Positions 1 through 3,767 of a stretch of 3,767 nucleotides of DNA are shown here, one piece after another (positions within the stretch are counted from its first letter, which is position 1; each line of letters begins with the position of its first letter). Below the pieces are notes generated by a model. The model was not told where the DNA came from and ran no database searches. It was given only the letters and a program-made list of their open reading frames with translations. The stretch lies in assembly GCF_003334815.1 (NCBI RefSeq), contig NZ_QOWO01000080.1; one strand, given 5' to 3'. Source of the DNA: Escherichia coli. GTDB lineage: Bacteria; Pseudomonadota; Gammaproteobacteria; Enterobacterales; Enterobacteriaceae. Position numbers and translations under genes: made by a program.

Positions 1-38
1 GGGGTTCCGTGGGCATTTCTGCGATAACACACGCTAAG
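1..38. repeat. Terminal inverted repeat (tnpA-proximal end), 38 bp: GGGGTTCCGTGGGCATTTCTGCGATAACACACGCTAAG
   Basis: It has the outer GGGG and inner ACGCTAAG typical of Tn3-family 38-bp IRs (compare Tn3 GGGG...ACGTTAAG). The tnpA stop codon (minus-strand TAG, plus 34-36) sits inside the IR, as is usual for this family. Its reverse complement matches 3751-3767. Confidence 0.85.
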
Positions 39-3000
39 GAAAAGTGAAGTTCTTTGGATTGAAGCGATTAGTACGAAGTGGCCTGTATCGTTCAAGGGGA
101 TGGTCAATTTCGTTCCACAGGTAATCTCCAGTGAGCGAGATATGACCCCATGGTAGTGGTGATACACTGGACAAGAGCTCTTCCGGTATAATGATCCCCT
201 GGTTGCGAATGTAATCAACAGCCCGACTGAGATAGACCGTGTTCCACAGAATTATTGCATTAACAACAAGGTTGAGGCCCGATGCCCTGTGAGCCATTGT
301 CTCGGCAGCCCTGTTCCGGAATTCGCCCAGTTGGTGAAGAAAAATAGCGCGGGCAAGTGCATGGCGGCTTTCGCCTTTGTTGAGGATTGCGTGTGATCTG
401 CGACGTAACCGAGTGTCAAGCAACCAGTCACAGATAAAAATTGAGCGTTCAATACGTCCCATTTCACGCAGGGCCAGATTGAGCCTGTTTTGTCTCGGAG
501 ATGCTGCCAGCTTTTTCAGTATTACCGATGGTGGTACCAGACCAGCGCCGATCGAGGCCTTAAGCCGCAGAACTTCATCCCAGTGCTGTTCTATTACTTC
601 CATTTTGGCCTTTCCGGCGATCAGGGCATCAAGTGGTTTATATTCCTCTGAGGGTGAAATAACGTACAACCTGCGACTGCCGAGGTTGCGAATACGGGGT
701 ATGAGTCTGTAACCAAAAGAGTGAAACATTGAAAATGTTGTTTCAGTCGCACCGGCTGTATCGGTGGCATGCTCATGAATTACCACAGAACTTTCGTTAT
801 GAAGTAAGCCGTCAAGTACGTAGGGAGCCTCGCTTTCAGAGGCCTGAATCATTCTGGAAAAAAAGGATGCAAAACGGTTCGATAAAAAACCATAAATCGA
901 CGCGCCAGGTCGTTTGCCGTATTTGGCGTTATATTCGAGGCTGGCTTCTCCTCGTCCACCCGCAGGAAAAAACTGCCCGTCCGAGGATGACACATGCCCA
1001 TCCCCCCATATAGCAGCAAAAGGATGTTCCTGTTGCGCATCGACCAGAACTGATGTGGCAGACGCATAGGTTTCAGTGCGTAAATGACGATCCATCATTA
1101 CCATCATCTGGTGAATGGTGACACCCCGGGAACTCTGCGCCATCCGTTCTGCTCCCGCATTCGTCGCATCGGCAAGGATCGCAGCCATAAGTGCAGCTTC
1201 ATCTTCCGCCTGTTCCCCGGTGCGATAATGGGTGAAACAATCAAGAAAACTGGTCCAGCTATGAACTTCTGCCAGCAAACTGGTAATTCTGATGCGTGGT
1301 ACCAGCATGTAGAGTTTACGGCTGAGAGCCTTAATTTTGTCGCTCTCTTCTTCGCGAATCGGAGACACAGACAACCCTCTGCTGGAAAGTTCTGCATCGG
1401 GTATGGCATTCTCCGAAGCAGCTTTTGCCAGCGCTTTCAGTTTTGCGTTGAGTGTGGTGGTTCGCTCAGCCCGCCATTCAGCAAAGTTGTCCGGAATGGC
1501 AAGTCCCAGCCGGGATTCTGCCCGCATCTGCCCGAAAACATGGTGAGGAAGAAGGTAGTCCTCAAAACTACGCCAGGCCCGACTACCATCAACCCATATG
1601 TCACCTGTTTTCAGGCGTTCCCGCAAATGAACGAATACGGCGACTTCCCACGCCTGCAGATCGGTATTTTCTCCATGGATGACACGACGTCGCCATTTAT
1701 GGGACATAAAATCGAGCGGAATTTGTTTGGGTAATTTTCGGCCATGATAGAACGCCTGCAAATACCCAATCGCCAACAAAACGCTATCATCCGGGCGAAA
1801 AGCTCTGAAAGAAAAAGCGCTGAAAATGAGTCGTCCAAGCTTACGTAATGATTTTTGTCGTCCGATAAGTTCATCCAGTTCAGAACAGTGATGGGAAGAT
1901 GCCACCGAAGCTGCAGCCTCCATACTGGCAATCAAACCTTCCCAGCCGAGTGATGCTGTTATTACAGATTCAATATCAGTATTACCGTCACGTGCTGCCA
2001 GGAGAGCCCGTCCCAGCTTAATATGATCCTGAGCTACGACTTCAAGTACTTCAGCGGCTTTCAGACGACGCTCTTTCTGGCTTATCTCTGCTCTGCGCCT
2101 CGTGCTGCCAATCAATTTGCAGAACATATCAATTGCCAGATCTGTAATTGCTGCCTGCTTTTCAATAACAAAGGCTACCAGCGTGGCATGACGGCGTTCG
2201 GATGCCATTCGTTGTATTTCACGCGCATGTAAAACGCGAGAATCCCGGGCAATAATACCGTAACGGTTTACATGAATCCGTTTACGTTGCTCATCGGAGA
2301 TTGCCGCTGTTCGTAATACCTCCAGCCTGGCAATTAACCCCTTAAGATTCTTGAGTTTCACGCCTTCCGGCGCTTCAGCTATCCAGCCTAAAATGCTCTT
2401 TTCTCCGACTCGTTCGGTAAGCAACTGCTCGAGAGCGCTAATGGATGAAGGTTTCAGATCCCTGATGAGTTCCCGATAAGAAAGGCGACGGGCAGCCGCC
2501 CGGCCCGCCATTGCCAGACGGATGAGTTGTGCCGGAGCAGGGGCAAGTAACTTCTGGTCCTTCAGCTTATTGATAACTGCTCTGGTGATCGGCAGTCCTT
2601 TTTCGGTGGTTGCTGCTTCGCGTGTAGCCGCGATAATGAGCATTCTGTAATCGCTACTCCGGACGGAACGAAGCTCCAAAGCCGAAACTATTTCGCGGGC
2701 ATGTTCCCGGCGGGTTTCCTCACGTTGTGCGTAAAGTGTAAAAACAGCAGGGTCAATATCCAGTTGTTCCGCAACAACGGTGATAACAGCCTCCGGGGGA
2801 ATCTCTCCTGCACGCAGTGTACGACCGAGATCACGGACAAGTGCAAGCTGAATGGCAAAACCCAGACGGTTATGAGATCGACGATGAGTTCTGGCGAATG
2901 CAATATCCTCGCAGGAGAGCGAAAACCGGGGAAGTGCATCCTCATAAAGTTCAGGTAATCCAAAAAGCGTATCGTACGATTTAGCGTCGAGAAATGACAT
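34..3000 (-). CDS. tnpA: Tn3-family DDE transposase TnpA, 988 aa
   Basis: A single uninterrupted 2967-nt ORF ending inside the terminal IR. The N-terminus carries the NRLGFAIQL motif typical of Tn3-family TnpA. Candidate DDE triad: D674 (SSSDGQ, nt 979-981), D747 (HEHATDTAG, nt 760-762), E877 (NKGES, nt 370-372), with spacing 73/130 aa close to what I recall for Tn4430 TnpA. The ATG at 3000-2998 overlaps the tnpR 3' end. Confidence 0.95.
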   Translation of the reverse strand: MSFLDAKSYDTLFGLPELYEDALPRFSLSCEDIAFARTHRRSHNRLGFAIQLALVRDLGRTLRAGEIPPEAVITVVAEQLDIDPAVFTLYAQREETRREHAREIVSALELRSVRSSDYRMLIIAATREAATTEKGLPITRAVINKLKDQKLLAPAPAQLIRLAMAGRAAARRLSYRELIRDLKPSSISALEQLLTERVGEKSILGWIAEAPEGVKLKNLKGLIARLEVLRTAAISDEQRKRIHVNRYGIIARDSRVLHAREIQRMASERRHATLVAFVIEKQAAITDLAIDMFCKLIGSTRRRAEISQKERRLKAAEVLEVVAQDHIKLGRALLAARDGNTDIESVITASLGWEGLIASMEAAASVASSHHCSELDELIGRQKSLRKLGRLIFSAFSFRAFRPDDSVLLAIGYLQAFYHGRKLPKQIPLDFMSHKWRRRVIHGENTDLQAWEVAVFVHLRERLKTGDIWVDGSRAWRSFEDYLLPHHVFGQMRAESRLGLAIPDNFAEWRAERTTTLNAKLKALAKAASENAIPDAELSSRGLSVSPIREEESDKIKALSRKLYMLVPRIRITSLLAEVHSWTSFLDCFTHYRTGEQAEDEAALMAAILADATNAGAERMAQSSRGVTIHQMMVMMDRHLRTETYASATSVLVDAQQEHPFAAIWGDGHVSSSDGQFFPAGGRGEASLEYNAKYGKRPGASIYGFLSNRFASFFSRMIQASESEAPYVLDGLLHNESSVVIHEHATDTAGATETTFSMFHSFGYRLIPRIRNLGSRRLYVISPSEEYKPLDALIAGKAKMEVIEQHWDEVLRLKASIGAGLVPPSVILKKLAASPRQNRLNLALREMGRIERSIFICDWLLDTRLRRRSHAILNKGESRHALARAIFLHQLGEFRNRAAETMAHRASGLNLVVNAIILWNTVYLSRAVDYIRNQGIIIPEELLSSVSPLPWGHISLTGDYLWNEIDHPLERYRPLRTNRFNPKNFTFP

Positions 3001-3604
3001 TGCTCTGATCCGTTGTCAGATTACGCCCCCCAGGTCCGGCCCAGCCAATTCGTCGTAGAGTATCGGTGAGCGTTGAGCGTGGCACACTGAATGCGCGACA
3101 TACTGACGCTTTACTGGCACCTCCTTCCAGAGCTGCGAGGATTTGATCAACCTTTTCAGCATCTATCGCCGGTGGCCTTCCGCCTTTTCTCCCCCGCCGG
3201 AGAGCAGCAGCCAGACCAGCATTAACGCGTTCTGTGATAAGTGTTCTTTCGTACTCCGCGAGCGTGCCAAAAAGGTTAAAGAGGAACGAGCCGTGTGGCG
3301 TTGTTGTATCAATAGATTCAGTCAATGATCGGAAAGCAATACCACGAATTTTCAGGTCTTCAATAATTCGGAGCAAATGTGAGAGTGAACGACCAAGTCG
3401 ATCCAGTTTCCAGACTATCAGTACATCACCTTCGCGAAGTTCAGCGAGACAGGACTTAAGTCCCGGGCGATTATCACGAGCACCTGAAGCATGATCCTGA
3501 TGTAAATGCCGGGGATCCACTCCAGCAGCAATCAACGCATCACGCTGCAAAGAAACTGACTGACGTTCATCATTGCTTGATACCCGCATATAACCAATCA
3601 ACAT
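2981..3604 (-). CDS. tnpR: Serine recombinase (transposon resolvase TnpR) of the Gin/Hin/Pin invertase-like type, 207 aa from the ATG at 3604. The ORF track extends to a TTG at 3613, which is probably an overcall.
   Basis: The N-terminus MLIGYMRVSSND...LQRDAL closely matches Gin (MLIGYVRVSTNDQ...LQRNAL), placing the catalytic Ser at residue 9 (nt 3580-3578). Conserved blocks VWKLDRLGRS, FRSLTESIDTT and ERV-AGLAAA-RGR-GGRP are present, followed by a C-terminal HTH (RSTLTDTLRR). An AAGG Shine-Dalgarno sits about 10 nt upstream of the ATG at 3604. The stop is TAA at 2983-2981. Confidence 0.9.
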   Translation of the reverse strand: MLIGYMRVSSNDERQSVSLQRDALIAAGVDPRHLHQDHASGARDNRPGLKSCLAELREGDVLIVWKLDRLGRSLSHLLRIIEDLKIRGIAFRSLTESIDTTTPHGSFLFNLFGTLAEYERTLITERVNAGLAAALRRGRKGGRPPAIDAEKVDQILAALEGGASKASVCRAFSVPRSTLTDTLRRIGWAGPGGRNLTTDQSNVISRR

Positions 3605-3750
3605 GTACGACAAACCTTAAAATTGAAGTTTCCGTACAGTTTCTCATTCCGACAGGGTTTGTCACGCAAAAAATCACAGATTTATGGATTCAATTTTCTT
3701 CAACTGCAGGACCTGACGGAAAACAAGTGATTTCCGTCAGGGAGAAATCG
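3605..3750. promoter_or_regulatory. Putative res (resolution) site with embedded tnpR promoter/operator
   Basis: A ~146-bp non-coding region lies between the tnpR start and the right IR, where res sits in Tn21-type elements. It contains a perfect dyad at 3713-3740 and repeated TTCCG(N)CAG half-site-like motifs at 3630-3638 and 3649-3657. No clear sigma70 -35/-10 pair could be assigned. Confidence 0.55.
3713..3740. repeat. Perfect 28-bp dyad CTGACGGAAA-acaagtga-TTTCCGTCAG; candidate res subsite I (crossover site)
   Basis: 10-bp perfect inverted arms flank an 8-bp spacer. The 28-bp length equals a typical serine-resolvase site I. It lies at the tnpR-distal end of the res region, where site I sits in Tn21-type res. 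Confidence 0.5.
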
Positions 3751-3767
3751 CTTAGCGGGTGTTATCG
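3751..3767. repeat. Terminal inverted repeat (res-proximal end), truncated by the window; the inner 17 bp are visible
   Basis: The reverse complement of 3751-3767 is CGATAACACCCGCTAAG, against IR positions 22-38 CGATAACACACGCTAAG (16/17 identical). Orientation and position are right for the opposite transposon end. Confidence 0.8.

What the first reader, a model, noticed from the sequence alone, without database searches (positions are those of the whole stretch)
1..3767. Minimal cargo-free Tn3-family transposon filling the whole window
The window holds only IR, tnpA, tnpR, res and IR; the implied full length is about 3.79 kb if the right IR is 38 bp. Tn3-family elements with no passenger genes are less common than cargo-bearing ones and serve as scaffolds that later pick up cargo. 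Because the window boundaries coincide with the element ends, the insertion context and the expected 5-bp target-site duplication cannot be seen. It may correspond to a known small cryptic element (Tn5403-like is my guess from memory), so novelty is uncertain.
Basis: partly seen in the sequence, partly recalled or inferred. Interest (0 to 1): 0.45.

Follow-up and report, generated by a model that had tools for sequence, protein, structure and literature searches.

The report
Small cargo-free Tn3-family transposon

Summary
The window holds a 38-bp left inverted repeat (1-38), tnpA (34-3000, minus strand), tnpR (2981-3604, minus strand), a 146-bp res-like region, and the inner 17 nt of the right inverted repeat (3751-3767).

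Fourteen copies that are 99.8-99.9% identical show the missing 21 nt, so the unit is 3788 bp. Nine of the 14 are flanked by perfect 5-bp duplications at different sites. This makes it a complete, autonomous, probably active, cargo-free Tn3-family transposon, not a fragment of a larger element.

The Tn5403 guess fails:
- Tn5403 TnpA is only 34.5% identical.
- Its TnpR aligns over only 76 residues.
- Its gene order is reversed.
- It is 3663 bp long.

The true relatives are cargo-free elements of 3.75-3.82 kb with the same layout and TnpA 71-90% identical. They occur in Xenorhabdus, Enterobacter, many Rhizobiales and IncP-1alpha plasmids.

One mildly unusual feature is the resolvase. It is 51% identical to the phage Mu Gin invertase but about 35% identical to Tn21-group resolvases. 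The probable crossover site is a 26-bp dyad with 12-2-12 geometry.

Full copies sit in at least 62 complete plasmids with generic annotation, so novelty is low. I could not establish a published name.

The parts
1..38 (+). Left terminal inverted repeat (tnpA-proximal end), 38 bp, GGGG...CTAAG. The tnpA stop codon lies inside it.
   Evidence: The same 38 bp bound all 14 near-identical copies.
34..3000 (-). tnpA, a 988-aa Tn3-family DDE transposase. It is intact, with the SSDGQ, DTAG and NKGE..H motifs present.
   Evidence: NF033527 at 922 bits against a cut-off of 500. Pfam DUF4158 (3-164) and DDE_Tnp_Tn3 (575-960). Aligns over residues 12-977 with the solved Tn4430 TnpA, E=5e-152. The motifs are read from the alignment.
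2981..3604 (-). tnpR, a 207-aa serine recombinase (ATG at 3604; an upstream in-frame TTG lies at 3613). Its 3' end overlaps the tnpA start by 20 nt.
   Evidence: Pfam Resolvase plus HTH_7. 51% identical to Gin over 179 aa; about 35% to TnAs1 and ISPa40 TnpR. RefSeq annotates the same start.
3604..3638 (-). Conserved block next to tnpR: TGTACG...CGTACA, two half-site-like 12-mers 9 bp apart, touching the tnpR start codon. Candidate res accessory site III and autoregulation site.
   Evidence: Conserved across 10 family members; dyad found. Function is inferred.
3645..3667 (-). Conserved block GCGTGACAAACCCTGTCGGAATG. Candidate res accessory site II.
   Evidence: Nearly invariant in 9 of the 10 aligned relatives (absent from L009, which has a deletion there) and found by pattern in 6 further loci. 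Function is inferred.
3714..3739 (.). 26-bp dyad TGACGGAAAACA-AG-TGATTTCCGTCA, two 12-bp half-sites around a 2-bp centre, 11 bp inside the right repeat. Candidate res site I (crossover site).
   Evidence: Inverted repeat I21. It is the best dyad in the region. The 12-2-12 geometry is kept in every intact relative while the central dinucleotide varies, and it is destroyed by a deletion in the IncX1 remnant.
3751..3767 (+). Inner 17 nt of the right terminal inverted repeat. The outer 21 nt lie beyond the window end.
   Evidence: The continuation is seen in L001-L004 and L072-L081.

Best explanation
The window is a near-complete copy (3767 of 3788 bp) of an autonomous, cargo-free Tn3-family transposon.

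Inferred mechanism, following the established Tn3-family pathway:
1. TnpA binds the two 38-bp terminal repeats and carries out replicative transposition into AT-rich targets, making a 5-bp duplication and a donor-target cointegrate.
2. TnpR, a serine recombinase, resolves the cointegrate at a res site upstream of its own gene. The crossover is most likely at the 26-bp dyad at 3714-3739. The two conserved blocks nearer tnpR would act as accessory sites and probably as the operator for tnpR-tnpA expression.
3. tnpR and tnpA are colinear and overlap by 20 nt, so they are probably co-transcribed and translationally coupled.

The layout (IR, res, tnpR, tnpA, IR) is that of the Tn21 group. The lineage is nevertheless distinct. 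Its transposase is only 35-39% identical to the named references I could test, and its resolvase belongs with the Gin/Pin-like recombinases.

Shown here: the parts, their integrity, the full length, the target duplications, and multiple identical copies per cell. Inferred: the cointegrate pathway, the subsite assignments, and regulation.
For: - Intact TnpA and TnpR with complete domain sets.
- 38-bp repeats and a 3788-bp unit in 14 copies differing from the window at 5-6 positions.
- Perfect 5-bp duplications (TTTTA, TATCT, AACAT, ATATA, GTAAT, AAAAA, TTCTT, TCAAA, TTATA) at nine different sites in ColE1-like, IncF, IncI2 and other plasmid types.
- Up to 9 places per genome, and copies on several plasmids of one strain.
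- Only 11 bp separate the right repeat from the dyad, so there is no room for cargo.
- The same compact layout, at 3749-3821 bp, occurs in relatives from Xenorhabdus, Enterobacter and many Rhizobiales.
- The res blocks and the 12-2-12 dyad are conserved across that family.
Against: - No experiment here shows transposition or resolution.
- Five of the 14 near-identical copies, and all 8 distant relatives that I checked and that had sequence on both sides, lack a target duplication. I attribute this to later recombination or deletion but did not show it.
- No sigma-70 consensus promoter was found upstream of tnpR.
- The assignments of sites II and III rest on conservation and weak half-site resemblance only.
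- The resolvase resembles invertases more than it resembles known transposon resolvases.
Confidence: 0.9

Rival explanations
1. It is Tn5403 or a close Tn5403 variant.
For: Both are cargo-free Tn3-family elements of about 3.7 kb with 38-bp repeats and 5-bp duplications, found on enterobacterial plasmids.
Against: Compared with the element annotated 'Tn5403 family transposase' in pKpQIL:
- TnpA is 34.5% identical.
- TnpR is 33% identical over 76 residues only.
- The order there is tnpA then tnpR.
- Tn5403 is 3663 bp against 3788 bp.
- The nucleotide search with the window returned only 27 Klebsiella records; those shown were short pieces, and none was annotated Tn5403.
Confidence: 0.01
2. The window is an internal or terminal fragment of a larger cargo-carrying or composite transposon.
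For: The window ends inside the right repeat, so its context is invisible. Tn3434 copies are known to bracket a 44-kb composite.
Against: - Nine independent insertions have 5-bp duplications directly abutting the 3788-bp unit.
- Flanking genes differ in every context: mbe genes, trbK/trbL, cvaA, a ferric reductase-like gene.
- Of the 62 plasmid records covering at least 80% of the window, all but one of those listed match as a single uninterrupted 3767-bp piece.
Confidence: 0.03
3. The recombinase is a Gin/Pin-type DNA invertase serving some switch, rather than a cointegrate resolvase.
For: - 51% identity to Gin over the whole protein, against 35% to Tn21-group resolvases.
- Some sources name it 'DNA invertase Pin-like'.
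- The dyad has the 26-bp 12-2-12 geometry that, from my own knowledge, hix and gix sites have.
Against: - There is only one such dyad per element, so there is no invertible segment.
- Conserved accessory blocks lie between the dyad and the gene, as in a res site.
- The module sits exactly where Tn21-type res and tnpR sit.
- It co-occurs with the transposase in nearly every full-length relative examined.
- Simple insertions, not cointegrates, are what is seen in finished plasmids.
Confidence: 0.08
4. It is a decayed, immobile relic.
For: Truncated pieces of it are widespread.
Against: - Both ORFs are intact with complete domains.
- Copies on different plasmids of one strain are identical or differ at a single position.
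- There are up to 9 places per genome.
Confidence: 0.03

Closest known systems
Unnamed (to my knowledge) cargo-free Tn3-family elements of 3.75-3.82 kb in Rhizobiales, Agrobacterium and Shinella plasmids and in IncP-1alpha plasmids pB11 and pSP21 (annotated tnpR/tnpA), plus the Xenorhabdus and Enterobacter copies
   Same: - The layout is identical: IR, res, tnpR, tnpA, IR.
- The repeats are 38 bp and 30-36 of 38 positions match.
- TnpA is 71-90% and TnpR 82-88% identical.
- The res blocks and the 12-2-12 dyad are conserved.
- There are no passenger genes.
   Different: - Nucleotide identity is only about 71% to the alphaproteobacterial form and 84% to the Enterobacter form.
- G+C is 50% here against 60-65% there.
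- Here tnpR is longer and overlaps tnpA by 20 nt, whereas the alphaproteobacterial forms have a 16-19 nt gap.
Tn21/Tn1721 subgroup of the Tn3 family (tested against TnAs1 and ISPa40)
   Same: - res, tnpR and tnpA are colinear, with res upstream of tnpR.
- TnpA is 988 aa.
- These are the highest-scoring named transposases (38.4-38.8% identity).
   Different: - The identity is no higher than between separate subgroups: TnAs1 against Tn5403 is 37.7%.
- TnpR is only 35% identical and is 186 aa there against 207 aa here.
- Tn21-group members usually carry cargo between the repeat and res.
Tn5403 (ISAcsp1)
   Same: It is a cargo-free Tn3-family element with 38-bp repeats and a 5-bp duplication, on enterobacterial plasmids.
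   Different: - TnpA is 34.5% identical.
- TnpR is essentially unrelated beyond the catalytic N-terminus.
- The gene order is opposite.
- It is 3663 bp.
Gin invertase of phage Mu (PDB 4m6f, 3uj3)
   Same: - 51% identity over residues 1-179, covering both the catalytic domain and the helix-turn-helix.
- The candidate crossover site has the same 26-bp, 12-2-12 geometry (gix and hix geometry from my own knowledge).
   Different: - There is one site per element, with adjacent accessory blocks.
- The gene is embedded in a transposon.
- There is a two-residue insertion in the conserved N-terminal segment just after the catalytic serine, and a C-terminal extension of about 25 aa.
- Dependence on a Fis-bound enhancer is unknown.
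TnEcO26 (BDIH01000107.1) and TnRsp12 (FO082821) in the curated Tn3-family list of Lima-Mendez et al. 2020 (PMC7157771, Table S1)
   Same: These are leads only. TnEcO26 is an E. coli element with a TnpR resolvase placed in the Tn21 subgroup. TnRsp12 is a Rhizobium plasmid element placed in no subgroup.
   Different: Not tested: neither sequence was reachable with these tools. TnEc1 from the same list is excluded because its terminal repeats are 47 bp.

Membership tests
Tn3 family of replicative transposons | Large (about 1000 aa) DDE transposase of the Tn3 type | tested here: met
   NF033527 at 922 bits against a cut-off of 500. Pfam DUF4158 plus DDE_Tnp_Tn3. Full-length match to the solved Tn4430 TnpA.
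Tn3 family of replicative transposons | Terminal inverted repeats of about 38 bp, starting GGGG and ending TAAG | tested here: met
   The left repeat is complete in the window. The right repeat has 17 nt in the window, and the remaining 21 nt are seen in 14 near-identical copies. 36 of 38 positions match.
Tn3 family of replicative transposons | 5-bp target-site duplication | tested here: met
   It is not visible in the window. It is present in 9 of 14 near-identical copies at different sites.
Tn3 family of replicative transposons | Site-specific cointegrate resolution module (recombinase gene plus adjacent res) | tested here: met
   A serine recombinase gene with Resolvase plus HTH_7, next to a 146-bp region with a conserved 26-bp dyad and two conserved blocks. 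Activity was not tested.
Tn3 family of replicative transposons | Replicative transposition through a cointegrate, and transposition immunity | not testable with these tools
   This needs mating-out and immunity assays. Some records hold 2-3 places, but I did not examine their completeness or orientation.
Tn5403 | Transposase closely related to Tn5403 TnpA | tested here: not met
   34.5% identity to the 'Tn5403 family transposase' of pKpQIL.
Tn5403 | Tn5403-type resolvase and gene order (tnpA followed by tnpR), length 3663 bp | tested here: not met
   TnpR is 33% identical over 76 aa only. The order is opposite. The length is 3788 bp against 3663 bp.
Tn21 subgroup | Colinear res, tnpR, tnpA with res upstream of tnpR | tested here: met
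Tn21 subgroup | TnpA clusters with Tn21-group transposases | tested here: inconclusive
   38.4-38.8% to TnAs1 and ISPa40 is the best among named elements. It is no higher than TnAs1 against Tn5403 (37.7%), which belong to different subgroups. No tree with a full reference set was built.
Gin/Hin/Pin DNA invertases | Close sequence relationship of the recombinase | tested here: met
   51% identity and 176 bits to Gin, against 105 bits to TnAs1 TnpR.
Gin/Hin/Pin DNA invertases | Two inverted crossover sites bracketing an invertible segment | tested here: not met
   There is a single 26-bp dyad in the element.
Gin/Hin/Pin DNA invertases | Dependence on Fis and a recombinational enhancer | not testable with these tools
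   This needs biochemical or genetic assays.

The most novel reading that the evidence does not exclude
This lineage may be an independent pairing of a Tn3-type transposase with a Gin/Pin-clade recombinase. That recombinase would have been converted into a cointegrate resolvase while keeping an invertase-style 26-bp (12-2-12) crossover site, with accessory sites replacing the Fis enhancer. If so, it would be a compact natural system for asking how serine invertases and resolvases acquire opposite topological selectivity. It may also be a separate, so far unnamed subgroup of the Tn3 family, shared between Rhizobiales and Enterobacteriaceae.
Probability: 0.3. Interest if true: 0.35.

Novelty: already known. 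Interest (0 to 1): 0.15.

Why it matters
It matters little as a discovery. The element is a textbook-type Tn3-family transposon, already present and annotated in hundreds of public plasmid and genome records.

Practical value:
- It should not be labelled Tn5403 in annotation.
- It is evidently active. Identical copies sit on up to six plasmids of one strain, disrupting mobilisation and transfer genes. It can therefore fuse and reshuffle plasmids, including small ColE1-type and large conjugative ones.
- Its repeat nature explains why it assembles as a stand-alone contig of about 3.8 kb.

The Gin-like resolvase and its dyad site are a modest curiosity for people who study serine recombinases.

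Tried and rejected
Attempts to find a published name, all without result:
- Full-text searches for the RefSeq protein accessions.
- Searches for '3788 bp'.
- Searches for the repeat terminus sequence.
- General term searches.
- Searches for TnEcO26, TnEc1, TnRsp12 and ISRsp12. TnEc1 is excluded because its repeats are 47 bp.
- A search for ISSP21.

Reference records I could not fetch because they are not in the collection: CP007733, JQ349086, KX555451 and KY887596. Tn5403 was taken from pKpQIL instead.

Other negative or unhelpful results:
- The first cluster look-up failed because of a queue and was repeated.
- Tn3434 and Tn6122 were considered as relatives and rejected. They have divergent tnpR and tnpA and 6-bp duplications.
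- The promoter scan upstream of tnpR found nothing.
- The 3712-3741 hairpin is not a terminator, because no T-run follows it on either strand.
- Rfam gave only a sub-threshold chance hit.
- The IncX1 plasmid resolvase near the remnant is not a relative of this TnpR (24% identity).
- A distant nucleotide search meant to locate TnRsp12 was swamped by generic Tn3-family hits.

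
Full report
**What is in the window**

The sequence begins with a 38-bp end, GGGGTTCCGTGGGCATTTCTGCGATAACACACGCTAAG. A single 988-aa ORF runs on the minus strand from 3000 to 34, with its stop codon inside that end. A 207-aa ORF lies upstream on the same strand (3604-2981; an alternative TTG start lies at 3613). It overlaps the large ORF by 20 nt.

The last 17 nt (3751-3767) are the reverse complement of 22-38 with one mismatch (repeat I2). No such match arose in 200 shuffles.

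The large protein is a Tn3-family transposase. It scores 922 bits against NCBIfam NF033527, whose cut-off is 500. It has Pfam DUF4158 and DDE_Tnp_Tn3. It matches the solved Tn4430 transposase across residues 12-977. The SSDGQ, DTAG and NKGE..H catalytic motifs are visible in the alignment.

The small protein is a serine recombinase with Resolvase and HTH_7 domains.

**Completing the element from other copies**

Megablast found copies at 99.8-99.9% identity covering the whole window in many complete plasmids. In all, 62 records hold at least 80% of it. They are mostly E. coli, with some Salmonella. Full copies also occur in 34 complete E. coli genomes, with up to 9 places in one genome.

In 14 copies that I fetched, the sequence continues past the window end with CAGAAATTCCCACGGAACCCC (one copy, L074, differs at one base). 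This completes a 38-bp right repeat that differs from the left one at two positions, and gives a unit of 3788 bp.

Nine of the 14 copies are flanked by perfect, AT-rich 5-bp direct repeats at nine different sites: TTTTA, TATCT, AACAT, ATATA, GTAAT, AAAAA, TTCTT, TCAAA and TTATA. The sites lie in ColE1-like, IncF, IncI2 and other plasmid types. Several plasmids of single strains each carry a copy, for example four plasmids fetched from strain Z1323HEC0422.

Each of these copies differs from the window at 5-6 positions. Two of the differences change TnpA residues. Both window proteins exist as exact sequences in public collections. Many of the contigs that carry members of their clusters are 3.7-3.9 kb long. 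That fits the window being a repeat-collapsed assembly contig, but this is an inference.

These data exclude the reading that the window is a fragment of a larger cargo-bearing transposon. They argue that the element is currently mobile.

**Testing the Tn5403 guess**

[quoted passage not shown] It is also called ISAcsp1. I took the copy annotated 'Tn5403 family transposase' in pKpQIL.
- Its TnpA is 34.5% identical to the window's.
- Its recombinase aligns only over 76 N-terminal residues at 33%.
- Its genes run tnpA then tnpR, the opposite order.

The window is therefore like Tn5403 only in being small and cargo-free.

**What it is related to**

A protein search of the plasmid collection put the nearest named transposases at 36-39% identity: ISPa40, TnAs1, TnAs3 and ISPa38, all of the Tn21 group. 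That is no closer than TnAs1 is to Tn5403 (37.7%). Subgroup placement is therefore unresolved.

A scan of one genome per species found real relatives:
- TnpA 90% identical in Xenorhabdus koppenhoeferi.
- TnpA 71-86% identical in some twenty Rhizobiales and a few other proteobacteria.

An Enterobacter plasmid carries an 84% nucleotide relative.

Where both ends could be found, these relatives are 3749-3821 bp long, apart from one 4038-bp copy. All have the same order: IR, res, tnpR, tnpA, IR. The alphaproteobacterial form is itself common on Agrobacterium, Rhizobium and Shinella plasmids. It also sits in the IncP-1alpha plasmids pB11 and pSP21, where it is annotated tnpR/tnpA. It is 71.5% identical to the E. 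coli form at the nucleotide level.

G+C is 50% in the window against 60-65% in the alphaproteobacterial copies. I take this to mean long separate residence rather than recent transfer.

**The resolution module**

The recombinase is 51% identical to the phage Mu Gin invertase over 179 residues. It is about 35% identical to the TnAs1 and ISPa40 resolvases, and it scores far lower against gamma-delta and Tn3 resolvases (E about 1e-24 to 1e-26, against 6e-50 for Gin). Its family counterparts are 82-88% identical to it.

I aligned the region between the right repeat and tnpR from ten family members. Three conserved features stand out.

1. A 26-bp dyad at window 3714-3739, lying 11 bp inside the repeat. 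It has two 12-bp half-sites around a 2-bp centre. This geometry is kept in every intact relative while the central dinucleotide differs (CT, CC, AG, GA, CA).
2. A nearly invariant block at 3645-3667, absent only from one relative that has a deletion there.
3. A block at 3604-3638 with TGTACG...CGTACA arms and two half-site-like 12-mers 9 bp apart. It abuts the tnpR start codon.

By analogy with Tn21-type res, where site I is distal and site III proximal to tnpR, I assign these as sites I, II and III. Only site I is well supported. From my own knowledge, the 12-2-12 geometry equals that of hix and gix sites, which fits the Gin-like protein.

There is only one such dyad per element, and it has accessory blocks beside it. 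A resolvase role is therefore much more likely than an invertase role. No consensus promoter or terminator was detected here.

**Mechanism**

The most likely mechanism is the standard Tn3-family pathway. TnpA acts at the 38-bp ends to make a cointegrate and a 5-bp duplication. TnpR resolves the cointegrate at res and probably represses the tnpR-tnpA operon. The 20-nt overlap of the two genes suggests translational coupling.

The parts, their integrity, the duplications and the multi-copy state are shown by the data. The cointegrate step, the subsite roles and the regulation are inferred.

Five of the 14 close copies lack a duplication. So do all eight distant relatives that I checked and that had sequence on both sides. 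Later recombination between copies, or adjacent deletion, is the usual cause, but I did not demonstrate it.

**Novelty**

The element is in at least 62 complete plasmids and 34 complete E. coli genomes with generic annotation. Its kind is textbook. I could not find a published name.

A curated list of 190 Tn3-family members contains two untested candidates: TnEcO26, an E. coli element in the Tn21 subgroup, and TnRsp12, a Rhizobium element in no subgroup. TnEc1 from that list is excluded by its 47-bp repeats.

I rate the finding as already known, with low interest. The one mildly unusual point is the invertase-like resolvase with a gix-like crossover site, which would interest specialists in serine recombinases if confirmed experimentally.

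Noticed in passing
L005 (IncX1 plasmid NZ_CP075742.1) 3077-3160 and 4339-4546; corresponds to window 1-84 and 3572-3767 plus the missing 21 nt: Roughly 160 plasmids match the window only at 80-90% identity. Most of the rows shown for this class are a piece of about 190 bp that is 86% identical to the first bases of tnpR plus res plus the right repeat. In the one example I examined, an IncX1 plasmid, there is also an 84-bp piece 96% identical to the left end. There the two ends face the same direction and bracket a P-loop NTPase gene. The 26-bp dyad is destroyed by an 11-bp deletion. These look like old remnants of a related element fixed in the plasmid backbone.
   Followed up: partly
window 2292-3457 and 2313-3767, matched in H73-H76: Fragments holding the tnpA 5' end (DUF4158 part) plus tnpR, at 97-98% identity, occur in several E. 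coli plasmids, including one from an O145:H28 strain. They are annotated 'DUF4158 domain-containing protein' and 'recombinase family protein'.
   Followed up: no
window 1-84, matched in H112-H117: The same 84-bp left-end piece, at 95-96% identity, is present alone in Salmonella and Klebsiella plasmids. It has the same boundary as the IncX1 remnant.
   Followed up: no
L085 (NZ_CP157096.1) 301-4287: One copy, in a plasmid typed IncY, has window positions 1-229 followed directly by 9-3767. That is a 220-bp partial tandem duplication of the left end. It is either an aberrant event or an assembly artefact.
   Followed up: partly
window 2981-3000; L009, L016, L025, L031: In the enterobacterial lineage tnpR is 205-207 aa and overlaps the tnpA start (20 nt in the window, about 14 nt in the Xenorhabdus copy). 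In the alphaproteobacterial relatives tnpR is 200-202 aa and ends 16-19 nt before tnpA.
   Followed up: partly
L006, L008, L015, L016, L018, L020, L025, L031: None of the eight more distant relatives that I checked and that had sequence on both sides shows a 5-bp target duplication, in contrast to 9 of 14 E. coli copies.
   Followed up: no
L074 (NZ_CP062880.1), right repeat: One copy without a target duplication has a right terminus ending ...CCACGGAGCCCC instead of ...CCACGGAACCCC. This is the base seen in the alphaproteobacterial repeats. It could be a point mutation, or a right end exchanged with another variant by recombination at res.
   Followed up: no
window 203, 655, 2016, 2193, 3745: The window differs from every fetched copy at these five positions. 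The differences give TnpA R270 (others C) and N933 (others S). This exact TnpA variant is on record from only 12 contigs.
   Followed up: partly
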